The translations under genes and the position numbers were made by a program. This document shows positions 6,333 to 63,950 of a DNA stretch of 64,000 bases, one piece after another. A model generated the notes under the pieces. The model made no database searches. It had not been told where the DNA came from and saw only the letters and a program-made list of their open reading frames with translations. Numbering within the stretch: the first letter of the stretch is position 1; each line of letters begins with the position of its first letter. Origin of the DNA: Escherichia phage OSYSP; sequence record MF402939; one strand, written 5' to 3'.

Positions 6333-6775
6333 TTAAAATTAAATTAACTCACCCAGATTGTATGCCTAAGATTGGTTCCGAAGATGCCGCAGGTATGGAT
6401 CTGCGAGCATTCTTTGGTACTAACCCTGCCGCAGATTTACGTGCTATTGCACCAGGCAAATCCTTAATGATTGACACCGGTGTCGCGGTGTCAATTCCGC
6501 GAGGCTGGTTCGGTTTGGTGGTTCCTCGTAGCTCTTTAGGTAAGCGCCATTTGATGATTGCAAACACCGCAGGGGTGATCGACTCAGACTATCGTGGTAC
6601 TATTAAGATGAACCTCTATAATTACGGTTCTGAAATGCAAACTCTGGAGAATTTCGAGAGACTTTGTCAGCTAGTAGTGCTACCACACTATTCAACTCGT
6701 AATTTTGAAATAGTTGACGAACTAGAGGAGACTATTCGTGGAGAAGGTGGATTTGGAAGCTCAGGAAGCAAATAA
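6329..6775 (+). CDS. dut: dUTP diphosphatase
   Basis: dUTPase motifs AAGMDLRA, PRSSLGKRH, GVIDSDYRGTI and C-terminal RGEGGFGSSG. Confidence 0.9.
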   Translation: MIKIKLTHPDCMPKIGSEDAAGMDLRAFFGTNPAADLRAIAPGKSLMIDTGVAVSIPRGWFGLVVPRSSLGKRHLMIANTAGVIDSDYRGTIKMNLYNYGSEMQTLENFERLCQLVVLPHYSTRNFEIVDELEETIRGEGGFGSSGSK

Positions 6776-6995
6776 TTTTACTGATCCTAATATGGTAGGT
6801 ATTGATACTAATATGTCGGCTTATCAGATTAAAACTGAACCAGAAAAGTATGTACTGAAAACAGACAAAGAAGGTAATGTTACTTTCTGGGATCCTGAAG
6901 GTTTTGTGGAGCTTTGTACTAATAGTGACAACGAGCATTTAAAAATACTATTAACCATTTATAATCTTGGTATTATAGAAGGTTGTAGAAGCTAG
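6738..6995 (+). CDS. Hypothetical small protein (GTG start, overlaps dut 3' end)
   Basis: ORF with GAGGAG 8 nt upstream of GTG; no motif recognised. Confidence 0.3.
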   Translation: MEKVDLEAQEANNFTDPNMVGIDTNMSAYQIKTEPEKYVLKTDKEGNVTFWDPEGFVELCTNSDNEHLKILLTIYNLGIIEGCRS

Positions 6996-7001
6996 TTATA
7001 G

Positions 7002-7040
7002 AAAAACCCCAGCGGATTTTGTCCGCTGGGGTTTCTTTTT
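7002..7040. terminator. Bidirectional rho-independent terminator between convergent dut region and tail-fibre gene
   Basis: AAAAACCCCAGCGG-loop-CCGCTGGGGTTTCTTTTT, A-run and T-run on either side. Confidence 0.8.
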
Positions 7041-7052
7041 ACTATGTATACA

Positions 7053-9962
7053 TTATGAGTTATCTGGCTTAATGAGCTCACTCACAAGTTTTTTCAGTTC
7101 GGTTAATTCTTGCTCAAGTTTGTTAACTTTATCAGCTTGATAACGAAATGCACAAGCTAAATCCGCCATAATTACGTTATTATCAAGAGCTAATGTATCG
7201 TCCGCTTTATCAACAACAATTTGACGGTCTACATATTCTTCACCTTCTTCATTAACACCTATAACATCTGCAAAAATATCCCCGCCAGGAATTAATTTTA
7301 CATATTCCGGGTCTATTTTTAGTAGGTCTTGGGCTATTAAACCAAATCGCTGGATGTTGCTTCCATTGTATTTAAACATTGTAGGCAGCCACTGCATAAC
7401 GCGATCATAGCTTTCTTTTCCATCTGTATAAATTATATCATGCTTTAAATCTCTGTCAGAGTTGGCGGCCTTTTGAAAAATGAAATTTCCACTTGATGAC
7501 CATGTAGTTATATCGTTTGATGCTGGCTGAAACTGGAAGTTACAGAAAAAATTGCCATCACCACGAAGCCTTAACGAGCAAAAAGGCCAAGCATTATTTC
7601 CCTGTGGGATAAGACCCCAAGTTGCACGAATTGGATAACCACCAGTTGATTGTGTACCCCATGAAAGTCCAGGCGCCCATCCACCATCATTGTTAGGAAT
7701 AATCTCGCCCCAAACAAGAGCATTACCCCAATAGTTAGGATCATCCCAGCCCATTTGTTGGGTTTTGCCAGTGTATTGGGCGGAATGAGTTCTGCCGTCA
7801 GGGTAAAACTTGTGCATATAGGCCTGTATCCCTGCTTGATACAATTCTATTCCAAAAGATTCAATGTGTGTGTCGCCTCTTCTGATTAAACCAGCGATAG
7901 CGTAATCGTCATACCAATTGTAACGACTTACACCAGTCCATGTGTTTATGGGTGGATTCATGGTTGAAAATAGTTGTGACGCATTGCGTTCATTCCCGTC
8001 TGCATAAATACCAGCCCCCGGAGCTAATGAGATTGATTTTGCTCCTGAAAAAGTACCATTTTCATTAAATTGATAATAGTGAAACAAGTTATTATGAAAC
8101 ACACCTATTGTATGTTTTCCTACGCCTACTTGAGTTTCGAAATAAGACTGAGAAGAACCAATATCCTCGCCTTGTGTGTTCTTTAATTTTGAATGGTATA
8201 TACCTGCGTTTGCAGTATTTGCATTTTCCGTTTCATTTTCAACATTAAGGCTTAGAAATTTTGGTGCATGTTTTTCGCCAAGTCCTATATTGTTTCTAAT
8301 ACCATTCGCATCCTTAGCACCCGTACCACCAAATTGAATACCTAGTGGTAGCCATTGATTGGTTGTAGCATCATAAACGCCCCAATGATCCCCACCATCT
8401 GGAATGGTTAGATACTTGTTTTTATTTGGGGAATATAAAACTGTTTCACCAGAAGTCTGAAACAGCCTATCAACTCCTAAATTATATCTAGCACCTTCAA
8501 GTGTATCCGCTCCAGTACCACCAGCAATAATTGATAATGGAAGAGATTCCCATGAGATACCATCACCATTTATGTTTTTCTGGAGTACAATAAGCCCATC
8601 ATCTCGCATAACAAATCTATATAATCTATTATGCGAGTATAAAAAAGTATGAACCCCATCCTGCACAAGTGAGTCTATAAGGAGCGTCTGACGAGAAGCA
8701 TTAATATCCGACAGATCTGAAAGATTATTTTCTTTTAGTAACGATTTACCAATAATACCTTCAGCTTTTCCAGCAGCCACTTCTGCACGTCCAGCGTCGG
8801 TAGATGCGCTTTGTGCGCTACTAGCAGCATTACTAGCTTGTTGCCCGGCCTCAACAGCACTGTTACCCGCTTGTGTAGCGGAAATAGCAGCGGCGTCTTT
8901 TAGCACGGTAGTTTCGGACACAGCGGCATCCTTAATTGCTTGCGTCTCGCTTACTGCACTATCCTTAATAGTCTGTGTGTCAGACTTTAATTTTTCAACA
9001 TCTGCTTTTAAAGCTGTTGTTTCACCTACAGCGGCATCCTTAATTGCTTGCGTCTCGCTTACTGCACTATCCTTAATAGTCTGTGTGTCAGACTTTAATT
9101 TTTCAACATCTGCTTTTAAAGCTGTTGTTTCACCTACAGCGCTATCTTTAATTAGTTGAGTATCTGATTTTAGTTGCTCAACATCTGATTTTAAGCCTTG
9201 AATAGTGGTTACTGACTGACTAGCTGAGGTTGCAGAACTAGCTGCGTTAGTCTCACTATCTTTGGCTTTAGTCTCACTAGTTTTAGCATTTGTTTCACTA
9301 GTTTTAGCATTTGTTTCAGAGGTTTTTGCAGCAGACGCTGATGTAGCAGCTTGTGTAGAGAATGTTTCCGCCTCATTCCTAAAACCACTGGAATCCGCAG
9401 CGGAAGCGGCAGCATTAGTCTCACTGATTTTTGCTTTATCTTCACTAATTTTTGCAACAGCAGCAGATGCAGCAGCATTAGTCTCACTGATTTTTGCTTT
9501 ATCTTCACTAGCCTTTGCATTAATTTCGCTAGTTTTAGCTTTATCTTCACTAGCCTTTGCATTAATTTCGCTAGTTTTAGCTTTATCTTCACTAGTCTTT
9601 GCATTAGTTTCGGATATTTTAGCTGCTGCAGCGGATTCTGCAGACTTATTGGCTGACGTTGCGGACTGAGTAGCAGAAGTAGCTGATTGGGTAGCCGATG
9701 CTTCAGAAGCTTCCGCGGAAATCGCAGCTTCCTGTTCAGAATTCTTAGCATTAAGCTCTGAAGTCTTAGCAGCTATTTCAGAATCTTTTGCAGCCGCAGC
9801 AGATTTAGCAGTGGCCTCTATAGAAGATACTAACTCATTAGCAGTAATAGAGCTAATAGAATTTCCAAGAGTTACTGTGTATCTAGGAAATTTACTAGCA
9901 GTAGCTTTAGTATCATCAATATTTAATATTTGTTGTACAATAATCTTAGTAGTTATTGCCAT
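7053..9962 (-). CDS. L-shaped tail fibre protein (pb1-like) with C-terminal intramolecular chaperone domain
   Basis: 969 aa; Ala/Ser/Thr/Lys-rich repeat region encoded by tandem DNA repeats; C-terminal segment resembles autocleaving chaperone domains of fibre proteins; first gene of late module as in T5. Confidence 0.75.
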   Translation of the reverse strand: MAITTKIIVQQILNIDDTKATASKFPRYTVTLGNSISSITANELVSSIEATAKSAAAAKDSEIAAKTSELNAKNSEQEAAISAEASEASATQSATSATQSATSANKSAESAAAAKISETNAKTSEDKAKTSEINAKASEDKAKTSEINAKASEDKAKISETNAAASAAVAKISEDKAKISETNAAASAADSSGFRNEAETFSTQAATSASAAKTSETNAKTSETNAKTSETKAKDSETNAASSATSASQSVTTIQGLKSDVEQLKSDTQLIKDSAVGETTALKADVEKLKSDTQTIKDSAVSETQAIKDAAVGETTALKADVEKLKSDTQTIKDSAVSETQAIKDAAVSETTVLKDAAAISATQAGNSAVEAGQQASNAASSAQSASTDAGRAEVAAGKAEGIIGKSLLKENNLSDLSDINASRQTLLIDSLVQDGVHTFLYSHNRLYRFVMRDDGLIVLQKNINGDGISWESLPLSIIAGGTGADTLEGARYNLGVDRLFQTSGETVLYSPNKNKYLTIPDGGDHWGVYDATTNQWLPLGIQFGGTGAKDANGIRNNIGLGEKHAPKFLSLNVENETENANTANAGIYHSKLKNTQGEDIGSSQSYFETQVGVGKHTIGVFHNNLFHYYQFNENGTFSGAKSISLAPGAGIYADGNERNASQLFSTMNPPINTWTGVSRYNWYDDYAIAGLIRRGDTHIESFGIELYQAGIQAYMHKFYPDGRTHSAQYTGKTQQMGWDDPNYWGNALVWGEIIPNNDGGWAPGLSWGTQSTGGYPIRATWGLIPQGNNAWPFCSLRLRGDGNFFCNFQFQPASNDITTWSSSGNFIFQKAANSDRDLKHDIIYTDGKESYDRVMQWLPTMFKYNGSNIQRFGLIAQDLLKIDPEYVKLIPGGDIFADVIGVNEEGEEYVDRQIVVDKADDTLALDNNVIMADLACAFRYQADKVNKLEQELTELKKLVSELIKPDNS

Positions 9963-10384
9963 TATCTAGTTACCCCATCACTGATAAATACTTTACCCTC
10001 CATTATACGAAAAGAACTAATAGCTGATCCTATGACGTCTCGTGTCATAATTATATCATAGTATCCTGCAAAACGTTGGCGAGGGTTATACTTATCTCTC
10101 TCTTTGGTAGCTTTTTCGCCAATATTATCTACTGCCTCTACAGGTAAACTTATAGCTATAGCACCTTGAGCAGCATCAGTAATTTTAGTAGTAAAAGATG
10201 CCAAAGTTTCCGCATTCTCATCAAGCCCGGCCTTTATAGTACCCCTTAGGGAATACCCTGTTAAGTTAACAGGGGTATTTGTAGGTGGATAAGTACTATC
10301 ATCAACATCTAAGAATTGCATCATTAGACCATAAGGTACTTTCTCATCTATCACTAAGTCTATAACTCTATTTTCAGTACTCAT
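9962..10384 (-). CDS. Tail collar-like protein (T5 p132-like)
   Basis: 140 aa, same length and position as T5 p132. Confidence 0.55.
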
Positions 10385-10390
10385 TATTTA

Positions 10391-12463
10391 TTACCTTATA
10401 TGGATATACCCACTATTTAGGTCTATCTTCATCTTGTAGTATGCCTCAGGATTTCCTGATAACGCAGCGTTCCTATCATAAATGATGTTAACACCGATCT
10501 GAGATAAGAAAGCATTTCCTGCTACAATTTTATCTGCCGTCACCGTCCCGTTAACAATCATGTTTCCGTGGAGAACCATTGCAGGGTTAACCCAACCAGA
10601 CCCGTTCCATTGCCTTGTAAATGCTGATTGTGGGGCATTACTGTTAAATTCAGTTAATACATCATATTTAACTGGAGGAGAACCGAAGTTACTTTGAAAG
10701 AAGGAATTAGCTTGTCCATCATCCCAACCACCTAAACCTGCTATACCTACAGAGTACATCCCAGGACCACGTTGTCCATCATGCCCTATAGTACCTTCAG
10801 TACCACTCCACTGAACCACATCTGACCAGCTAGTACCCTCTAATAACCTATTAGTAACTGGATCAAGTGTACCCGTAGTCGCATAGATATTTTGTGTCAT
10901 ATCTGTACGGTTAGGTGGAGTTTTTGACCAACCAGGAGGTGGATAATCTTGTTCTAGTGGTTTAGCAGGTAGAGATGTTGCTAACTTATAAACAAATACT
11001 GTCTGTTTACCTTGTAAACCAGTTTCAATATCTACGTCACCATTTGGTGTCCCAATTACTACACCACTAGAGATACGCAAGGTAGTACCATCATAACGTA
11101 TCCATTGTGTAGCGTTACCAATGTCTAATTTAGCTTTGGCAGAGGTATTATCCATACCCATCCAAATACCGGAGTTATTATCCCCCCAAGATTTACCTTG
11201 AGTGTAAATTGCTGGGTTATCCTTACCAGATAAGTTAGTCATAATAAAGTTCGCAGCATTAATATCTCTAGTAATTACTTTACCATCAACGTTAACAACA
11301 CGGTTTATAGGGTCGAAAGAAATAGGTGCTTTTCCTTCTTCATCCAGTAGACCAATGTTAATAGCACCAGTAGCTGCGTCGATTAAGAATGTCTGTCTCC
11401 AGATTTCTCCATCTTTCATGCTACCCTTAATAAAGGCATAATTAACGTCAATACCTGTCTCATTGACAAAGCTATTGTCTAGAGGAGTATCTTCATTCAA
11501 TATAAATGTTACAGGAGCTGATTCTGTTATATCTTGCTTATTTGGTCCCCAGGCAATTGATGATACCTTAAAAGTATGCTCAACTTTCCATGGGAATGAT
11601 ATAATCGTTGCAGCTCTAGCAGCCCCAACGTTTATCTTTTGAGCTTTATCCCAGCCAGTCTTAGCGTATTCTTCAGAGTTTATATAAGTAACCAGAAATT
11701 CACGGACATTAGCACCCGCACCACGTTCCCAGTCCCACTCTATTCTGACATCATATCGTTCCTTACCATCTGCAATTCGTGCAGCTTTAAAGGCAATGTT
11801 AGTAGGTGCAGTAGGTGGTACAAAATTATAAGCTACAGTGAAAACGCTAGGATATTCATAATAACCAGATGAGTCAACTGTAACACCATCTGGCATCGTA
11901 ACTTGACCAGATATTCTGATCTTATAGTCGCCAACGGGAACACCACCAAATTTGATAGTAGGTCCCAGCGCGCCTATATAGTATTTAACCCATTCACTAT
12001 CTTCTGATGCAGTACTTTTTAATTCAATAGTGCAGTAACTAGCTTCACCAGTAGTCTCTACAACAACTATTGGAGCACCAACACCAACGTCAACGGGTTC
12101 TGATTCAGATCTTGCTGCAGTAATTATTGGCTTTTCCTTTGTTCTAAAGTTAGTTTCATTAGAGAGGTTTATACCAATTTTTGCATTTAAAAGTTCTGAG
12201 TCGATAATTGAATCATAGAAAGCCCCCTGAACCTGGTAGGTGGTTGAGGGGGTTAAATTATTAATCATTACGAAGAAAGTATCTATACCGGTATAATCAC
12301 GTCTATCTATACTTTCTCCTATTTTTAACCAAAAAGATCTACCAATAACATCATAATCAGTATAAATGGAGTGCTGGACATAAGCCAAAGTATATCCAGT
12401 CATTATACTATTTAAGACCATTTTGGCTGGTGCATTATTTGAAATCATTAAATGGATGCCCAC
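10391..12463 (-). CDS. Baseplate/tail tip protein (T5 pb4-like)
   Basis: 690 aa; position and size match T5 pb4; overlaps upstream gene by 16 nt. Confidence 0.65.
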   Translation of the reverse strand: MGIHLMISNNAPAKMVLNSIMTGYTLAYVQHSIYTDYDVIGRSFWLKIGESIDRRDYTGIDTFFVMINNLTPSTTYQVQGAFYDSIIDSELLNAKIGINLSNETNFRTKEKPIITAARSESEPVDVGVGAPIVVVETTGEASYCTIELKSTASEDSEWVKYYIGALGPTIKFGGVPVGDYKIRISGQVTMPDGVTVDSSGYYEYPSVFTVAYNFVPPTAPTNIAFKAARIADGKERYDVRIEWDWERGAGANVREFLVTYINSEEYAKTGWDKAQKINVGAARAATIISFPWKVEHTFKVSSIAWGPNKQDITESAPVTFILNEDTPLDNSFVNETGIDVNYAFIKGSMKDGEIWRQTFLIDAATGAINIGLLDEEGKAPISFDPINRVVNVDGKVITRDINAANFIMTNLSGKDNPAIYTQGKSWGDNNSGIWMGMDNTSAKAKLDIGNATQWIRYDGTTLRISSGVVIGTPNGDVDIETGLQGKQTVFVYKLATSLPAKPLEQDYPPPGWSKTPPNRTDMTQNIYATTGTLDPVTNRLLEGTSWSDVVQWSGTEGTIGHDGQRGPGMYSVGIAGLGGWDDGQANSFFQSNFGSPPVKYDVLTEFNSNAPQSAFTRQWNGSGWVNPAMVLHGNMIVNGTVTADKIVAGNAFLSQIGVNIIYDRNAALSGNPEAYYKMKIDLNSGYIHIR

Positions 12464-15297
12464 TCCACAGACTGTTCTCCATCATCCCCTTCTGCCCTAA
12501 TACGAAAATACAATTTTCTATTTATACCTAGAGCACCGCTGTTCTGGAGAGCAAAGTCTGCCTTATTATATGTTAATAAATAGTCATAAGTATACTGATT
12601 TTCAATACGTACACTTCTTAACATCCTATTTTGTGAATCGTGTATTTCAAGGGTATAAAATATACTCTCTATTATATCTTCTTCAGGTATTCTATCCCAG
12701 GCTAGTTTCACATCTGGGCCAACAAACTCAGTTACATCTCCAGAAGCAGTATTAGTTACCCTAAAATTAGATACTACACTAAGGTTTTTAGCAGAGTTAA
12801 GTTCTATAGACAGAGTCACCGGGGAACTTCTTCTACCATTAATATCTACTGCCCTTATCTCAAATATAGCCAGACCTGCTGGTTCCCCAATTATTTCTTG
12901 GACCATACGTTCGTTAGGATTGGTCTCTAACTGTTGTATTATGTAAGGTTCGGCATGGCCTGAGTGCACAATAGAGTAGTAAACTACATTATTGGTTAGA
13001 CTCGGAAGCCAGGATAACTCACCATTTTTACCTATAGAGCCTACTAAACCGCCAGGAGTAGGAGTATATTTAAAGTCTCTAGGAGGAAGGACATTGTTAC
13101 TAATATCAGGAATATCATTACCGCTATTATCAACCTGCTCAGAGTTGATGAATACATCCTCTCCATACTCCTGTAAGGTAACATTTATCTTACCCTCTCT
13201 AGAGTTTTCAACCTCATCAACTAGGAAATACTTTTTGTTCCACCCGTAACGGTCATACGTGAATGCAATAGCATCATTGGGTTCAATCCCTATGAACTGG
13301 TATGGTAATGAGAAAGAAAGTGTTCTTGAGTATCTGGATTTCTTAAGTTCTCTATCCGCAAAACTTCTTGCAGTATAGTAGTTAGTAATATTAGCAAAAG
13401 ATAGTTGTAATTTTTTATCTAGGTTCTTGTCCTGTTCCTTATACTTGGAATTATAGAATGTAATAGAATTAGTTTTCCAGCTAAGGGCGGGATCTACGAT
13501 AGATGCTTGAACTGAGTTGAATTTATTTCTACCAGTAGTATCTGATAGCTCCAAATCACCGTAAGTATCTAGAAAATTAATCTCTAAGGGAGTATTAGAG
13601 TATTTTTCTACAGTAACCCTATACTGACCAGATAAATTGTTAATAGCCCCACCATAGGACTCTAACAAACCTTGCACATTTTTAAATACTGATTCAGATG
13701 TATCCAAAATAGTATTCATTTGTACTATTTGTCTATTTTCTGCTAGTGGATCAGTCCACCCAACGTATCTCCAATATGGCTGCCAAGATACCTGATAGGA
13801 TTCATCTATAATATCTAAAATAGCTGCCTCCTGTATTAATTGCTGAAGAGGGAACTGATCAATGGTAATATTAGCGCCATATCTATCAGAGGTTAAGTAA
13901 TCAAGTGTTTGCCAAATACCATTTAAACTAGTACTATTAGCAGTTACTCTACCATCAGAATGATAGACTTTTACTTTTTTACCTTGAATTTCAGCACTAA
14001 CTTCTGGAATCTCAGTCCTATTTTCATTAATAGTGAAGCGCACCACTGCGTATGCAGTATCTAGTAGCTTATATCTAGCATCCCAGTACTCCGGCCCATT
14101 GCCATTCATATTCTGAAGGTAGAATCCACGTTCTTTAGCTATATCTACTAGTACTTCAGAGGCTGTTTGATCAGATTTTCCGTGATAAGTCCAAATCCTT
14201 ATGTCACCATTTCCATCATTATACTTATACTCTTGACCATGGACGGATGGACTACTAGAAGAGGTTCCAGATGCTATCCTCTGCATTGTATCTCCTGCTA
14301 TTTTTTTAGTACCAAAGCAGGTTCTAGCGGAGCTATCATTAGCATCTACGCAGATCATAGGATTATCACCGAAGGAGAAATCAAGAAAACCATCAATCTC
14401 CCCCTCAGCAAAGGCGTATACGACATAAACTATGTTGGGATTGTGTAGTTCTGTATCAGCAAAAATAGGTATTCCAGGAATTTTTTGAACCCCATAAACC
14501 ACCGGTATGTATTTAGCAGCAAGGTTAAAATCTATATCCACTTCCTTAGTGACAGTTTCATAGTATTTTTTAAGGCTGTAGCTTCTAGATAAACCAAATA
14601 ATTTTTTCTTTGATTTTAGCTTGTATCTTTCTTCTTGAACCTGATATTTTGCTAGGATAGAGATACTTTTATTAGAGTGGAAGAAGCCGTAGTCTTCTTG
14701 ATACTCTGGTCTTTTAGCACCATTAGATGGTACTAACTGTCCAGCTACAACTTCAAGCCCCCTATGGGAAGCGTCATCAGTATATCTACCATTAACTCTA
14801 TCAAAGTCATAGAATTGGTTAGAACAATTCCAGGTAATTGTAGAGGTTCCTACTCCAGAGGTACTAATGTTATCTTTAATACCCCCTCCAGTAATCCTCC
14901 CCCTAAAATATAGTAAAGGACCATTTGTATCTGGGTCTACTGGCAGAATAGAACCATCTTCAGTAATAATTGCTTGATGAATTGATACGGTTCTATCTAA
15001 GAAGGATACACCATTTTGTACTAGTTTTAGTACTTCATCCTGAGCTGTACCAGTAATAGTAAAAGATAGACTACCAATAGATAAATCTCTATTTTGTTTA
15101 TGTGAGCTAATAGACTTAACTTTACCCGCCTGGTATAAGATGCCATTATATAGTACATCCCTAAAATAATCAGTTAAATAAATAAAAGCAGTACTAGTAC
15201 CAGTAGAGCCAGGTAACTCTAGAGAAATTAGACTAGCAGTTTTTATTCTGCTATTATTTTTTAAGTAGTTTCTAGCACTATCTAGTATTTTTTTCAT
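12448..15297 (-). CDS. Baseplate hub protein (T5 pb3-like)
   Basis: 949 aa, matching T5 pb3 length and position. Confidence 0.7.
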   Translation of the reverse strand: MKKILDSARNYLKNNSRIKTASLISLELPGSTGTSTAFIYLTDYFRDVLYNGILYQAGKVKSISSHKQNRDLSIGSLSFTITGTAQDEVLKLVQNGVSFLDRTVSIHQAIITEDGSILPVDPDTNGPLLYFRGRITGGGIKDNISTSGVGTSTITWNCSNQFYDFDRVNGRYTDDASHRGLEVVAGQLVPSNGAKRPEYQEDYGFFHSNKSISILAKYQVQEERYKLKSKKKLFGLSRSYSLKKYYETVTKEVDIDFNLAAKYIPVVYGVQKIPGIPIFADTELHNPNIVYVVYAFAEGEIDGFLDFSFGDNPMICVDANDSSARTCFGTKKIAGDTMQRIASGTSSSSPSVHGQEYKYNDGNGDIRIWTYHGKSDQTASEVLVDIAKERGFYLQNMNGNGPEYWDARYKLLDTAYAVVRFTINENRTEIPEVSAEIQGKKVKVYHSDGRVTANSTSLNGIWQTLDYLTSDRYGANITIDQFPLQQLIQEAAILDIIDESYQVSWQPYWRYVGWTDPLAENRQIVQMNTILDTSESVFKNVQGLLESYGGAINNLSGQYRVTVEKYSNTPLEINFLDTYGDLELSDTTGRNKFNSVQASIVDPALSWKTNSITFYNSKYKEQDKNLDKKLQLSFANITNYYTARSFADRELKKSRYSRTLSFSLPYQFIGIEPNDAIAFTYDRYGWNKKYFLVDEVENSREGKINVTLQEYGEDVFINSEQVDNSGNDIPDISNNVLPPRDFKYTPTPGGLVGSIGKNGELSWLPSLTNNVVYYSIVHSGHAEPYIIQQLETNPNERMVQEIIGEPAGLAIFEIRAVDINGRRSSPVTLSIELNSAKNLSVVSNFRVTNTASGDVTEFVGPDVKLAWDRIPEEDIIESIFYTLEIHDSQNRMLRSVRIENQYTYDYLLTYNKADFALQNSGALGINRKLYFRIRAEGDDGEQSVEWASI

Positions 15298-39223: not shown

Positions 39224-39633
39224 TTATCCACTTGACTTTTATTTTCCAGTGGATAACTACTTATTTTATAAAATAAATTAATTGACTTTTATTTGTTAGT
39301 ATGCGTCGGAAAGATAGCAGACTAATAATTGCTAGGATGATAATCATGCTGGTGGATTGTAACGGCTTAAATTATTAGCAGACTATTAATCACGGAAAAT
39401 CTCATTAGCCAACTAACTATTTCATGATATATAATATACTTATAAATTAAGGAGAAATAATAATTATAAGAAATAATAGCTACAGTAAATATTAACTATA
39501 AGAAACTATCGGCCTAAGTGAGAACCACTATCATTTAAGTTATCCACAACGTTATCCACAGCACAAAATGATTTGACATAATAGGCGGTGATATAAGGAC
39601 TTTTACACAGACTTATCCACAGCTTATCCTACT
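39224..39633. promoter_or_regulatory. Divergent control region with DnaA boxes: inverted pair TTATCCACT/AGTGGATAA (39224-39256), palindrome TTATTTTATAAAATAA, perfect TTATCCACA boxes at 39540, 39552 and 39613
   Basis: Exact matches to the E. coli DnaA box consensus TTATCCACA read directly; duplicated TTGACTTTTATTT on both sides of the palindrome. Confidence 0.6.
39405..39435 (+). promoter_or_regulatory. Candidate promoter for the rightward pre-early operon
   Basis: TATAAT at 39430-39435 followed by ACTTATAAATTAAGGAGA, resembling the other early promoters; -35 is weak. Confidence 0.35.
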
Positions 39634-43446: not shown

Positions 43447-43608
43447 TTAAATGAGAATCATTATCATTCGCAGTCCACTGTCTAACCGATAATCATTTCC
43501 TTTCTTAAATGAGAATCATTTCACTTTTTGAATAGTTCTCATTTCCTTTCTTAAATGAGAATAATTATCATTCGCATTCCACTTCTTAAATGATAATGAT
43601 TCTCATTC
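43447..43608. repeat. Five copies of 24-bp motif CTTAAATGAGAATCATTATCATTCG (one inverted), Fur-box-like
   Basis: Copies at 43447, 43504, 43550 and inverted at 43584, plus palindrome at 43091; core matches 15 of 19 positions of the E. coli Fur box GATAATGATAATCATTATC. Confidence 0.6.
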
Positions 43609-44280: not shown

Positions 44281-44340
44281 AATAACCGCCCTCCCTATAA
44301 CCGCCCTGTATTAACCGCCCTGTATTAACCGCCTATTGCT
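44281..44340. repeat. Four tandem copies of about 14 bp AACCGCCCTNTATT
   Basis: ATAACCGCCCTCCCTATAACCGCCCTGTATTAACCGCCCTGTATTAACCGCCTATT read directly. Confidence 0.6.
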
Positions 44341-62457: not shown

Positions 62458-62534
62458 TGGTAGTTAGTAGTGGATTTGAACCACTGTAGTCGCTCCGTAT
62501 GAAGGAGGTGCATAACCACTCTGCCAACTAACTA
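62458..62534 (-). tRNA. tRNA, anticodon CAU (Met or Ile2)
   Basis: 7-bp acceptor stem TAGTTAG/CTAACTA, T-loop GGTTCAAATCC, anticodon loop TTCATAC, encoded CCA. Confidence 0.75.
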
Positions 62535-62629
62535 TTATGTTTTACTAAGCTAAGTAAGTATTCTTTATACTCTTTAGACCAATTAGCTTTTTTAAACTTT
62601 CCTGGACGCATAGTCTTAATTCCTAGATT

Positions 62630-62707
62630 TGGTACTCCGGGAGGGATTTAAACCCCCGATCTCTCGGTTATCAGCCGAGTGCTTTAGATCGCTAAGCTAC
62701 CGAAGCA
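62630..62707 (-). tRNA. tRNA-Ile (anticodon GAU)
   Basis: Anticodon stem-loop CTCGG-CTGATAA-CCGAG, T-loop GGGTTTAAATCCC, 3' CCA. Confidence 0.7.
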
Positions 62708-62914
62708 TTAACATTTTACAGCAGAACGTTTGCCATTTCTAGGTGCACCTGGAAGTCGTGCACGTTCTGCCATTCTTCGCTTAATCTTTGAAATATTTTC
62801 TAGTGTTTGTTCTTCAGGCTTAATACCTGAAACACTACACCACTGATTACCATCCCATGCGGTAATGATCATAACACCATTACTCATGATCTTTTCTGTG
62901 AAAGTAATCCTCAT
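62708..62914 (-). CDS. Hypothetical small protein between tRNA genes
   Basis: Start moved to MRITFTE to abut the upstream stop; the track ORF extends to 62935. Confidence 0.35.
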   Translation of the reverse strand: MRITFTEKIMSNGVMIITAWDGNQWCSVSGIKPEEQTLENISKIKRRMAERARLPGAPRNGKRSAVKC

Positions 62915-63207
62915 TATAGCAACTCGTCTAAGCAAGAGGTATATTTAAGTTTACCATCTTTATCTACTTTAATTTCAACTTCCGCTCGTGGTACTTGACG
63001 AACTACACCATGAATCATCTTATAGTTAATAGACTTAGACGGTTCATAATCTTTTGGGAAGACTTGCTTAACCGTTACTACCTTGTACCCATCACGCGGT
63101 GTTAACACAACAACTTGATCACCTTCTTTGATTTTCCAAGAGTTAGGAAATTCATAGGTATAGCGTTGACCACCCGTTTGGAATATAACAGAAAGATAAC
63201 GTTTCAT
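62914..63207 (-). CDS. Hypothetical small protein between tRNA genes (97 aa)
   Basis: ORF in tRNA cluster. Confidence 0.4.
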   Translation of the reverse strand: MKRYLSVIFQTGGQRYTYEFPNSWKIKEGDQVVVLTPRDGYKVVTVKQVFPKDYEPSKSINYKMIHGVVRQVPRAEVEIKVDKDGKLKYTSCLDELL

Positions 63208-63280
63208 TTGGTTTCCCTCTCATTAATTTATATAAATATTATAGCAATAAATAAGAGAGAAAGCAAATGAATTTTTAAAT

Positions 63281-63355
63281 TTGGTGCTCCCACCAGGAAT
63301 CGAACCCGGTTCAGATGCTTACAAGGCAACTGCATCGCCAGCAATGCTTTAGGAG
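63281..63355 (-). tRNA. tRNA, probably Thr (anticodon UGU, tentative)
   Basis: Acceptor stem GCTCCTA/TGGGAGC, T-arm CCGGG-TTCGATT-CCTGG, anticodon loop CTTGTAA, 3' CCA. Confidence 0.65.
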
Positions 63356-63523
63356 CGATAATCCCGTTATTTCAACGGGATTTCTTTTTCAAATACAGGG
63401 GATTTATCTGACATTACTGTCATTGCCAACTGCTGAAGAAACTCGAAAGTAAAGGCAACACGTTCTTCACCAATCTCTACTTCTACACGTTTCTTTTGTT
63501 TATCAATCTTTACTTTTAGGTTG

Positions 63524-63775
63524 TCAGCCATTAGAGGGTACAGTACTGGTAGTTGGCAATACTACAGATGGAGCAACAGTGTTTAAATGCTTTCTCCAGT
63601 CTAGGTTAAATTGTTTTCGAAACTCTTCATAAGGTTCTTCTGGATAAAAGCTAAAACCTCCTTTCTCATCATTCAAGATAACAGAGCCGTCAGTTTGTTC
63701 ATATGCTCGATATGTTTCTCCAATAATGATAACTCGCTTATCAGTACTTTTATTACGAAACTCAAAAACGTGCAT
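63524..63775 (-). CDS. Hypothetical small protein between tRNA genes (83 aa)
   Basis: ORF in tRNA cluster. Confidence 0.4.
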   Translation of the reverse strand: MHVFEFRNKSTDKRVIIIGETYRAYEQTDGSVILNDEKGGFSFYPEEPYEEFRKQFNLDWRKHLNTVAPSVVLPTTSTVPSNG

Positions 63776-63791
63776 AGTGTTTCCTTAAAGT

Positions 63792-63867
63792 TGGAGCGGC
63801 TAGAGGGAATCGAACCCTACTCAGCGAGGCTTGGAAGGCCTGCGACACAACCCGTGTGCTTAACCGC
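63792..63867 (-). tRNA. tRNA, probably Gly (anticodon UCC, tentative)
   Basis: Acceptor stem GCGGTTA/TAGCCGC, T-loop GGTTCGATTCC, anticodon loop CTTCCAA. Confidence 0.6.
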
Positions 63868-63874
63868 GATTATT

Positions 63875-63950
63875 TGGCTGGAGAAGGAGGAATCGAACCT
63901 ACCATTAACGGAGTCAAAGGCCGTTGTGCTAACCATTACACTACTCTCCA
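63875..63950 (-). tRNA. tRNA, probably Gln (anticodon UUG, tentative)
   Basis: Acceptor stem TGGAGAG/TTCTCCA, T-loop GGTTCGATTCC, anticodon loop CTTTGAC, 3' CCA. Confidence 0.6.

What the first reader, a model, noticed from the sequence alone, without database searches (positions are those of the whole stretch)
7053..9962. L-shaped tail fibre gene with internal tandem DNA repeats
Around 8890-9620 on the + strand there are long near-perfect tandem duplications (for example the roughly 50-bp unit TTTAGCTTTATCTTCACTAGCCTTTGCATTAATTTCGCTAGT), which encode an Ala/Lys/Thr/Ser/Glu-rich repeat region. Such repeats are recombination hot spots that can change fibre length and host range. They also create spurious antisense ORFs.
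Basis: seen in the sequence. Interest (0 to 1): 0.4.

Follow-up and report, generated by a model that had tools for sequence, protein, structure and literature searches.

The report
Repeat-built shaft of T5-like tail fibre
This is the side (L-shaped) tail-fibre gene of the published T5-like coliphage OSYSP; its tandem DNA repeats encode the 7- and 11-residue units of a coiled-coil shaft whose unit count differs between related phages, which is ordinary biology for phage fibres.

Summary
ORF 7053-9962 (-), 969 aa, is the L-shaped tail fibre (pb1/LtfA homologue) of a Tequintavirus. Its protein is 100% identical to the annotated tail fibre of Escherichia phage OSYSP.

The repeats are a perfect 108-nt x2 array (8920-9141), 21-nt units (9247-9330) and 63/42/21-nt units (9397-9624). 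They are the strongest tandem repeats in the 64-kb window.

They encode 29 in-register heptads, xA(K/A)xS(E/A)x, with Ser invariant in all 27 scored. These are followed by 11-residue units (TQxIKDxAVxE) and 14-residue units. Together they form an all-helical, proline-free shaft of about 54 nm, inferred to be a three-stranded coiled coil from the DT57C LtfA structure.

Relatives differ from this gene only by whole units in these arrays (7, 11, 36 and 49 residues). OSYSP alone carries the extra 36-residue unit, about 5 nm of shaft.

Length variation is therefore supported. An effect of copy number on host range is not shown. Specificity most likely lies in the distal module (aa ~412-834), which is shared with Seuratvirus and Drexlerviridae phages and is followed by a Peptidase_S74 chaperone.

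The antisense and alternate-frame ORFs are compositional by-products. The case is ordinary and essentially already known.

The parts
7053..9962 (-). L-shaped (lateral) tail-fibre gene, 969 aa; identical to the Escherichia phage OSYSP tail fibre protein (ASM62939.1 / YP_009791002.1)
   Evidence: ORF. PHROG tail-fibre families, E 1e-273. Pfam Peptidase_S74. PDB 8hqz_d LtfA, E 7.6e-34. Exact-sequence look-up.
9843..9962 (-). N-terminal anchor, aa 1-40. In DT57C this part inserts beta-strands into the LtfC collar ring.
   Evidence: Nearly identical to DT57C LtfA residues 1-40. AF2 gives no helix before residue 41. Role of the DT57C homologue from PMC10713586.
9399..9842 (-). Shaft helix 1, aa 41-188: heptad repeats xA(K/A)xS(E/A)x
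   Evidence: AF2 helix 41-188. Heptad table. Ala/Ser periodicity of exactly 3.50 residues, power 29. Ser 27/27 at heptad position 5.
9397..9624 (-). 63-, 42- and 21-nt tandem DNA repeats encoding KAKTSEINAKASED-type double heptads (aa ~113-189)
   Evidence: TRF. 100 nt perfect at period 42, 9496-9595.
9372..9398 (-). Helix break, aa 189-197 (ADSSGFRNE); candidate hinge
   Evidence: AF2 non-helical with pLDDT below 50 at 188-199. The heptad pattern is interrupted here.
8730..9371 (-). Shaft helix 2, aa 198-411: heptads (to about aa 252), then a zone of 11- and 14-residue units (aa 253-360), then an Ala/Ser-rich tail
   Evidence: AF2 helix 198-411, pLDDT 85-95 over about 250-380. Ala/Ser periodicity 3.6-3.65, about 11/3. 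Unit table.
9247..9330 (-). 21-nt tandem repeats encoding the AKTSETN heptads (aa ~211-238); VEc33 has one more unit
   Evidence: TRF. +21 nt in VEc33 at window 9319.
8920..9141 (-). Perfect 108-nt tandem duplication (aa 274-348; 36 aa = 11+14+11). The junction sits at a CGCTGT microhomology inside the IKDxAV motif. It is absent from all relatives examined.
   Evidence: 108/108 identity and a 114-nt perfect run at period 108. Junction sequence. -108 nt in VEc33, MET_P1_179_112, T5_ev212, Elw, EC148 and SA001. Junction 29-mer absent from three public collections.
7461..8729 (-). Distal, presumed receptor-binding module, aa 412-834. It starts at the NNLSDL marker and contains two GGTGAxxxxxxRxNxG motifs (aa 481 and 545).
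   Evidence: Beta-rich AF2 model, pLDDT 72. Best Foldseek hit is T5 pb1 C-terminal domain 4uw8_G, E 5.5e-4. Shared with Seuratvirus and Hanrivervirus fibres.
7056..7460 (-). Peptidase_S74 intramolecular chaperone, aa 835-969. Predicted self-cleavage before Ser835, with Lys840 at S+5.
   Evidence: Pfam PF13884, aa 835-889, model positions 1-58, 33.6 bits against a cut-off of 22. Ser/Lys align with DT57C LtfA. T5 Ser1264/Lys1269 mechanism from PMC4690869.
9962..10384 (-). LtfC/p132 collar protein gene (140 aa), the attachment partner of the fibre; its stop overlaps the fibre's start codon
   Evidence: Pfam LtfC, E 1.3e-14. PHROG 'collar tail protein for L-shaped tail fibre attachment'.
9262..9669 (+). 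Spurious antisense ORF (135 aa). The same applies to 9351-9656 (+), 8977-9159 (+) and the alternate-frame ORF 9209-9751 (-).
   Evidence: Substitutions against relatives fall on codon position 3 of the fibre frame, e.g. 33/28/121. Synonymous-codon shuffles reproduce open runs of similar length.
7004..7034 (.). 14-bp-stem hairpin with T runs on both sides, between the convergent fibre gene and ORF 6738-6995; a likely bidirectional terminator
   Evidence: Terminator scan.

Best explanation
The region is the L-shaped tail-fibre gene (pb1/LtfA homologue) of the T5-like phage OSYSP.

The protein has four parts:
- An N-terminal anchor (aa 1-40) that plugs into the LtfC collar.
- A proline-free alpha-helical shaft of about 370 residues, most likely a parallel three-stranded coiled coil, with one break at aa 189-197.
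- A beta-rich distal receptor-binding module (aa ~412-834).
- A C-terminal S74 chaperone that cuts itself off at Ser835.

The tandem DNA repeats are the coding image of the shaft's structural periodicity. The 21-nt units are heptads with Ala at 'a' and Ser at 'd'. The 42- and 63-nt units are double and triple heptads. The 33-nt units are hendecads. The 108-nt unit is 11+14+11 residues.

Because neighbouring units are near-identical at the DNA level, slipped-strand mispairing or unequal recombination adds or removes whole units. Such changes keep the reading frame and the coiled-coil register, so they are tolerated. The result is fibres of different shaft length in otherwise near-identical phages.

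OSYSP carries one recent extra 36-residue unit, about 5.3 nm or roughly 10% of the shaft. It formed at a 6-nt microhomology between two IKDxAV motifs.

Host specificity is set mainly by the distal module. That module is swapped as a block, with junctions in the conserved end of the shaft and at GGTGA...NLG motifs.

Shown: gene identity, repeat anatomy, unit-wise variation, helical prediction, frame selection and mosaicism.
Inferred: trimeric coiled-coil packing beyond the resolved DT57C segment, the slippage mechanism, self-cleavage, and any phenotypic effect.
For: Gene identity:
- Synteny with LtfC, pb4 and pb3.
- Residues 1-212 match DT57C LtfA (8hqz_d) at E 7.6e-34, with near identity over 1-100.
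- Exact identity to the OSYSP tail fibre.
- S74 domain at 835-889.

Shaft structure:
- DT57C LtfA forms a three-helix coiled coil starting at T40 (PMC10713586).
- AF2 predicts helices 41-188 and 198-411.
- The heptad register is unbroken from aa 50 to about 252. Ser is at position 5 in 27/27 heptads and Ala at position 2 in 22/27.
- Ala/Ser periodicity is 3.50 in the heptad zone, then 3.6-3.65.

Unit-wise variation:
- Within the repeat arrays, indels against relatives are +21, -108 and -33 nt.
- The shaft-end marker sits at 316, 327, 352, 365, 376, 383 and 412 in T5-like fibres.
- It sits at 258, 269, 280 and 291 (steps of 11) in Seuratvirus-type fibres, corresponding to 0 to 3 hendecads.
- Different genomes carry different perfect tandem runs.
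- The duplication junction is at CGCTGT.

Selection on the fibre frame: 121 of 182 shaft substitutions against T5_ev212 fall at codon position 3.

Mosaic modules.
Against: - No trimer model or experimental structure covers the repeat zone. The DT57C model resolves only about the first 50-60 residues.
- An Ala/Ser core is unusual for a stable coiled coil.
- AF2 monomer confidence in the heptad zone is only 64-84.
- The extra 108-nt unit is seen in one assembly only, and its junction is absent from all other collections searched.
- In the 'DVWIPF' class of T5-like fibres, some length differences (1, 3, 6, 8 residues) are not multiples of 7 or 11, because a non-helical linker also varies.
- No phenotype data exist for copy number.
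Confidence: 0.85

Rival explanations
1. Copy-number change in the repeats is an adaptive contingency mechanism. On this view, fibre length is tuned to O-antigen or capsule thickness and thereby alters host range or adsorption.
For: Unit number varies widely and repeatedly in three phage groups. Each lineage has its own freshly homogenised runs. Lateral fibres bind O-antigen as primary receptor in T5-like phages (PMC8594841).
Against: The repeats are proximal and far from the distal binding module. Phages with 922, 940 and 969 aa alleles of the same distal module were all isolated on E. coli, several on O157:H7. No experiment links length to host range. The variation is equally well explained as near-neutral slippage tolerated by a periodic structure.
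Confidence: 0.15
2. The perfect 108-nt duplication is an assembly or sequencing artefact, and the true OSYSP gene encodes 933 aa like MET_P1_179_112.
For: Only one public contig encodes the 969-aa protein. The diagnostic junction 29-mer is absent from IMG/VR, JGI metagenomes and GTDB genomes, whereas the ancestral junction is found. The two copies are 100% identical.
Against: The longest exact repeat is 114 nt. That is shorter than the 2x250-nt MiSeq reads, and the genome arrangement was additionally checked with Ion Torrent reads (PMC5646388, PMC11664485). It is also shorter than SPAdes's usual largest k of 127 for such reads (my own knowledge, not stated in the papers), so the copy number should be resolvable. 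Assemblers usually collapse tandem repeats rather than expand them. The insertion is in frame and exactly one structural unit, with a clean microhomology junction. Analogous unit gains occur in independent genomes.
Confidence: 0.07
3. The long ORFs inside the repeat zone are real overlapping genes. These are 9262-9669 (+), 9351-9656 (+) and 9209-9751 (- alternate frame).
For: They are 101-180 codons long. The alternate-frame ORF is annotated as 'hypothetical protein' in Salmonella phage SA001.
Against: Substitutions concentrate on codon position 3 of the fibre frame. Shuffling synonymous codons of the shaft gives open runs of similar length: means of 119, 150 and 81 codons against 187, 149 and 104 observed. 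The products are low-complexity Leu/Lys/Gln strings. The SA001 and window versions are only 99/181 identical, while the fibre frame is well conserved.
Confidence: 0.02
4. The Ala/Ser-rich repeat zone is not a coiled coil but a flexible, disordered or beta-structured linker.
For: The core positions are small and polar (Ala and Ser). AF2 was run on a monomer, and pLDDT in the heptad zone is moderate.
Against: The periodicity is strict at 3.50 residues, Ser and Ala are invariant at fixed heptad positions, and there is no proline in 366 residues. The homologous DT57C segment is a resolved three-helix bundle from T40. The hendecad zone is predicted helical at pLDDT 85-95.
Confidence: 0.05

Closest known systems
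Bacteriophage T5 L-shaped tail fibre pb1 (1396 aa; PDB 4UW7/4UW8 for the C-terminal domain)
   Same: Same genomic slot next to p132/LtfC, pb4 and pb3. Homologous N-terminal part (PHROG 24369, profile length 1396, matches aa 3-194 at E 4e-56). C-terminal S74 chaperone with a Ser...Lys(+5) dyad. The best fold match of the distal half is 4uw8_G.
   Different: 427 residues shorter. The distal domain shows no detectable sequence similarity to T5 pb1, and the fold match is weak (TM 0.16-0.21). The receptor is unknown, whereas T5 binds oligomannose O-antigen.
DT57C LtfA (PDB 8HQZ chain d), the proximal subunit of a branched lateral fibre
   Same: N-terminal anchor and first heptads nearly identical. 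The helix starts at the conserved T40 and forms a three-helix coiled coil. Both have the LLKxNNLSDL marker and an S74 domain.
   Different: The DT57C fibre is branched, with a second protein LtfB. No second fibre gene follows here: the fibre gene is bounded by a terminator hairpin and a convergent gene. The DT57C shaft is longer (marker at about 535 against 412) and its middle heptads differ in sequence.
T5-like 'LtfA + second fibre' alleles (ESCO40, IrisVonRoten, FFH1 class)
   Same: aa 1-401 (anchor plus whole shaft) is 70-79% identical. The same heptad and 14+11 units are present and also vary in number.
   Different: A different distal domain (DVWIPF type), no S74 chaperone, and a further tail-fibre gene downstream.
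Lateral fibres of Seuratvirus (Aeromonas phage SD04 type) and Hanrivervirus (Salmonella phage slyngel type)
   Same: The distal module, S74 domain and, for SD04, the hendecad zone are 72-90% identical. Hendecad number varies from 0 to 3 or more.
   Different: Unrelated N-terminal attachment domains (PF08400 in the Seuratvirus type) and unrelated phage backbones of 50-60 kb.
T4 fibritin (gpwac) and other segmented or repeat-encoded coiled-coil fibres; also streptococcal M proteins and trimeric autotransporter stalks. These comparisons are from my own knowledge, apart from the Letarov 2005 fibritin paper, which appears in the reference list seen.
   Same: They work alike. A periodic coiled coil is encoded by tandem DNA repeats, so unit gain and loss changes length without breaking the fold.
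   Different: No sequence homology. Membership is not claimed.

Membership tests
T5-type L-shaped/lateral tail fibre (pb1 / LtfA) | Gene lies in the tail-tip cluster immediately downstream of the collar gene ltfC/p132, beside pb4 and pb3 | tested here: met
   LtfC domain protein at 9962-10384, pb4 at 10391-12463 and a 949-aa pb3-sized ORF at 12448-15297, all on the minus strand. The same order is annotated in VEc33.
T5-type L-shaped/lateral tail fibre (pb1 / LtfA) | Conserved N-terminal anchor of about 40 residues that docks into the LtfC ring | tested here: met
   Residues 1-100 are almost identical to DT57C LtfA (8hqz_d, E 7.6e-34). They also match the T5 pb1 PHROG. The docking itself is inferred from PMC10713586.
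T5-type L-shaped/lateral tail fibre (pb1 / LtfA) | Homotrimer with a three-helix coiled coil starting at T40 | tested here: inconclusive
   T40 is conserved. AF2 monomer gives a helix from residue 41, and heptad periodicity is 3.50. Oligomeric state could not be modelled with the tools available.
T5-type L-shaped/lateral tail fibre (pb1 / LtfA) | Distal domain binds O-antigen and speeds adsorption; L-shaped morphology | not testable with these tools
   Only a weak fold match to the T5 pb1 distal domain. A helix break at aa 189-197 could be a hinge. No binding or electron-microscopy data.
Peptidase_S74 intramolecular chaperone (PF13884) | Domain match above the curated threshold at the C-terminus | tested here: met
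   33.6 bits against a cut-off of 22, aa 835-889, full-length model match.
Peptidase_S74 intramolecular chaperone (PF13884) | Catalytic Ser at the cleavage site with Lys five residues downstream (T5: Ser1264/Lys1269) | tested here: met
   Ser835 sits at model position 1 and Lys840 at +5 (SDRDLK). Both align with the Ser and Lys of DT57C LtfA. The T5 residues are from PMC4690869.
Peptidase_S74 intramolecular chaperone (PF13884) | Autoproteolytic release after trimer folding | not testable with these tools
   Needs protein chemistry.
Hypervariable contingency locus (repeat-driven phase or host-range variation) | Copy-number change produces a selectable switch in phenotype | not tested
   Only in-frame, unit-wise length changes between isolates are seen. 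There is no frameshifting repeat and no phenotype data.

The most novel reading that the evidence does not exclude
The heptad and hendecad arrays of lateral-fibre shafts might act as a genuine length-tuning device. Unit gain and loss would occur at high frequency within phage populations. Selection would then match fibre reach to the depth of the host's O-antigen or capsule layer. This would make shaft copy number a second axis of host adaptation, independent of the receptor-binding domain, and one shared by Demerecviridae, Queuovirinae and Drexlerviridae.
Probability: 0.12. Interest if true: 0.5.

Novelty: already known. Interest (0 to 1): 0.18.

Why it matters
The finding has little novelty. 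The gene is annotated in a published phage, and repeat-encoded fibre shafts are familiar.

It has three practical uses:
- It flags a place where annotation pipelines call false ORFs. One relative, SA001, carries such a call.
- It flags a place where short-read assemblies could mis-count units.
- For engineers of T5-like biocontrol phages such as OSYSP, it marks natural in-register splice points for changing fibre length or swapping distal modules. These are heptad or hendecad boundaries, the conserved end of the shaft, and the GGTGA...NLG motifs.

The observation that indels respect 7- and 11-residue quanta across three phage families is a small detail. I did not find it described in the papers I read.

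Tried and rejected
1. I suspected that the split annotation of the fibre gene in Salmonella phage SA001 came from errors in the repeat zone. It does not. The frame is broken by a 44-nt perfect tandem duplication at about codon 18, in the anchor.

2. I looked for independent contigs encoding the exact 969-aa protein and found none. I also searched for the duplication junction 29-mer in IMG/VR, JGI metagenomes and GTDB genomes and found none. A control pattern was found.

3. A sequence search of PDB did not detect T5 pb1 970-1396. Only Foldseek on the AF2 model found it, and weakly.

4. I tested whether all shaft-length differences are sums of 7 and 11. This holds for the S74-type and Seuratvirus-type fibres. 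It does not hold strictly for the DVWIPF class, where a non-helical linker also varies.

5. I considered real overlapping or antisense genes and rejected them.

6. Literature searches for earlier descriptions of heptad/hendecad copy-number variation in phage fibres returned nothing specific. One search failed on a term that was too short.

7. The promoter-like motif count in the gene does not exceed the shuffled expectation.
Full report
**What is there**

The ORF at 7053-9962 on the minus strand encodes 969 aa. Upstream on the same strand lie three tail genes. The first is a 140-aa protein with the LtfC beta-sandwich domain, which also matches the PHROG 'collar tail protein for L-shaped tail fibre attachment'. 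The second is a 690-aa protein with all four pb4 domains. The third is a 949-aa ORF of pb3 size.

The 969-aa protein matches tail-fibre PHROGs, with a best E-value of 1e-273. It carries a Peptidase_S74 domain at aa 835-889. Its first 212 residues match chain d of PDB 8HQZ, the DT57C LtfA protein, at E 7.6e-34 and are almost identical over residues 1-100.

An exact-sequence look-up shows the protein is identical to the annotated tail fibre protein of Escherichia phage OSYSP (ASM62939.1 / YP_009791002.1). OSYSP is a published T5-like phage active against E. coli O157:H7 (PMC5646388 and PMC11664485). [quoted passage not shown] The closest genomes in the phage collection are Tequintavirus VEc33 (95% nt) and Salmonella phage MET_P1_179_112.

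**The observation**

Tandem Repeats Finder reports these arrays:
- 108 nt x2.2 at 8920-9153
- 21-nt arrays at 9247-9330
- 63 nt x2 at 9397-9519
- 42 nt x3.2 at 9491-9624
- 21 nt x5.4 at 9493-9606

The two 108-nt copies are 108/108 identical, and the period-108 match is perfect over 222 nt (8920-9141). A 100-nt stretch is perfect at period 42. These are the strongest tandem repeats in the 64-kb window, scoring 447, 224 and 204 against 92 or less elsewhere.

**What the repeats encode**

When aa 50-252 are written in sevens, they fall into one unbroken register, xA(K/A)xS(E/A)x. Position 5 is Ser in 27 of 27 scored heptads, and position 2 is Ala in 22 of 27. The Ala/Ser signal has a sharp periodicity of 3.50 residues with power 29.

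From aa 253 the pattern changes to 11-residue units ([DE]TQxIKDxAVx) interleaved with 14-residue units (ETTALKADVEKLKS). The Ala/Ser periodicity there is 3.6-3.65, close to 11/3. The 366 residues from 40 to 405 contain no proline.

AlphaFold2, run on the monomer with a 38-sequence alignment, predicts no structure for residues 1-40. It then predicts helices at 41-188 and 198-411, separated by a low-confidence break at ADSSGFRNE. pLDDT is 85-95 across the hendecad zone.

In the DT57C cryo-EM structure, the homologous LtfA helix starts at T40 and forms a three-helix coiled coil projecting from the LtfC collar (PMC10713586). T40 and its surroundings are conserved here. I therefore read the repeat zone as the trimeric coiled-coil shaft. 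At 0.148 nm per residue, the two helices are about 22 nm and 32 nm long. The trimeric packing beyond the resolved DT57C segment is an inference.

**Copy number among isolates**

A protein alignment with VEc33 (940 aa), MET_P1_179_112 (933 aa) and T5_ev212 (922 aa) shows 92-99% identity outside the indels. The window has one extra 36-residue unit. VEc33 has one extra AKTSETN heptad. T5_ev212 lacks one further 11-residue unit. At the DNA level these are -108, +21 and -33 nt, and the same holds for Elw, EC148 and SA001 within the repeat arrays.

In a panel of 120 homologues, I used the conserved shaft-end marker N[NH]LSD[LV], at aa 412 here, to measure shaft length. It lies at 316, 327, 352, 365 (x4), 376 (x3), 383 and 412 in T5-type fibres. 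It lies at 258, 269, 280 and 291 in the ~60-kb phage fibres.

Reading the sequences shows that the steps of 11 correspond to 0, 1, 2 or 3 copies of the hendecad. The 49-residue differences are seven heptads. A second class of T5-like fibres (ESCO40 type) varies in 25-residue (14+11) and 7-residue KTEADRS units. There a non-helical linker also varies, so not every difference is a sum of 7 and 11.

Each genome has its own set of perfect tandem runs. This points to ongoing lineage-specific duplication or homogenisation.

The OSYSP duplication junction lies at a CGCTGT microhomology inside two paralogous IKDxAV motifs. That is the expected signature of slippage or unequal exchange.

**Is the 108-nt duplication real?**

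It appears in one assembly only. Its diagnostic 29-mer is absent from IMG/VR, JGI metagenomes and GTDB genomes. A control 26-mer for the ancestral junction is found once, in the VEc33 contig.

Against an artefact, the longest exact repeat is 114 nt. OSYSP was assembled by SPAdes 3.10.1 from 2x250-nt MiSeq reads, and the genome arrangement was checked with Ion Torrent data. A 114-nt repeat is shorter than those reads and shorter than the usual top k-mer of 127 (the k value is from my own knowledge). The event is also in frame, exactly one structural unit, and has a clean junction. I put the artefact at about 7%.

**Host range and mosaicism**

The repeats are proximal. The distal half (aa 412-834) is beta-rich in the AF2 model, with mean pLDDT 72. 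Its only significant Foldseek hit is the T5 pb1 C-terminal domain with chaperone (4uw8_G, E 5.5e-4), and the TM-score is low, as expected for a monomer model of an intertwined trimer.

The fibre is mosaic:
- aa 1-401 is 70-79% identical to many T5-like fibres that have another distal domain and no S74.
- aa ~240-968 is 72-84% identical to fibres of ~60-kb phages such as the Seuratvirus SD04. These have a PF08400 N-terminus.
- At the DNA level, aa 544-938 is 86-90% identical to Drexlerviridae such as Hanrivervirus slyngel.

The Drexlerviridae boundary coincides with the second of two GGTGAxxxxxxRxNxG motifs, at aa 481 and 545. The DNA-level matches to the ESCO40 class and to SD04 overlap at about aa 343-385, the conserved end of the shaft.

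Host range is therefore most plausibly changed by swapping distal modules, with conserved shaft DNA offering homology for the exchange. Nothing here shows that repeat number itself changes host range. T5-like lateral fibres are known to bind O-antigen, and their locus is known to be highly variable (PMC8594841; PMC4728585).

**C-terminal chaperone**

The S74 match starts at model position 1 on Ser835, with Lys840 five residues later. Both align with the Ser and Lys of DT57C LtfA. They mirror T5 Ser1264 and Lys1269, where cleavage releases the chaperone (PMC4690869). I predict a mature fibre of aa 1-834. This is not tested.

**Embedded ORFs**

Substitutions against six relatives fall mostly on codon position 3 of the fibre frame within the shaft. 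For T5_ev212 the counts are 33, 28 and 121.

The long open runs are 187 codons in sense +1, and 149 and 104 codons in the antisense frames. Permuting synonymous codons while keeping the protein gives means of 119, 150 and 81, with maxima of 212, 264 and 153. The open runs therefore follow from the amino-acid composition.

SA001's record annotates the alternate-frame ORF as a hypothetical protein. That gene is actually broken by a 44-nt tandem duplication at about codon 18.

**Verdict**

This is an ordinary, already annotated lateral tail-fibre gene. Its tandem repeats are the DNA image of a heptad/hendecad coiled-coil shaft that varies by whole units among isolates. The host-range claim for copy number is unsupported. 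Interest is low.

Noticed in passing
window 7004-7034: A perfect 14-bp-stem hairpin (AAACCCCAGCGGA...TCCGCTGGGGTTT) with T/A runs on both sides. It sits between the convergent fibre gene and ORF 6738-6995 and looks like a bidirectional intrinsic terminator.
   Followed up: no
window 7150-8331 (aa ~544-938 of the fibre); loci L026, L027: The distal fibre module is shared at 86-90% nt identity with phages of other groups: Seuratvirus SD04 and Hanrivervirus slyngel, G29-2 and atuna. The DNA-level boundary falls at the second of two GGTGAxxxxxxRxNxG motifs (aa 481 and 545), which suggests these motifs are module junctions.
   Followed up: partly
phage records MG065643, MG065649, MG065657, MG065680, MG065681: Five unannotated ~49.9-kb records labelled 'Campylobacter phage' carry this E. 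coli/Salmonella-type distal fibre module at 86% nt identity. The host label looks doubtful.
   Followed up: no
L004 (Salmonella phage SA001) 1000-3812: The orthologous fibre gene is broken by a perfect 44-nt tandem duplication at about codon 18, in the collar anchor, and is annotated as three CDS. One of those is the alternate-frame low-complexity ORF. This is either an assembly error or a fibre-less laboratory variant.
   Followed up: partly
homologues P0035-P0088 (ESCO40 / IrisVonRoten / L6jm class): A second class of T5-like fibres shares the whole shaft but ends in a different distal domain (DVWIPF motif, no S74), and ESCO40 has a further fibre gene downstream. Their shafts also vary by 25-residue (14+11) and 7-residue KTEADRS units.
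   Followed up: partly
window 39453-39505, 43491-43566, 44298-44333: Three short tandem repeats elsewhere in the window: 16 nt x3.3, 23 nt x3.3 and a perfect 14 nt x2.6. They were not examined.
   Followed up: no
window 62458-63950: Start of a tRNA cluster on the minus strand (Met, Ile, Thr, Gln), as expected for a T5-like genome. OSYSP is reported to have 27 tRNAs.
   Followed up: no
PDB 7lzj_A residues 124-181 vs fibre aa 105-162: A phage 'depolymerase' chain carries the same SExxAKx heptads (E 0.0057). This heptad type may therefore be a widespread N-terminal stalk element of phage fibres and spikes.
   Followed up: no
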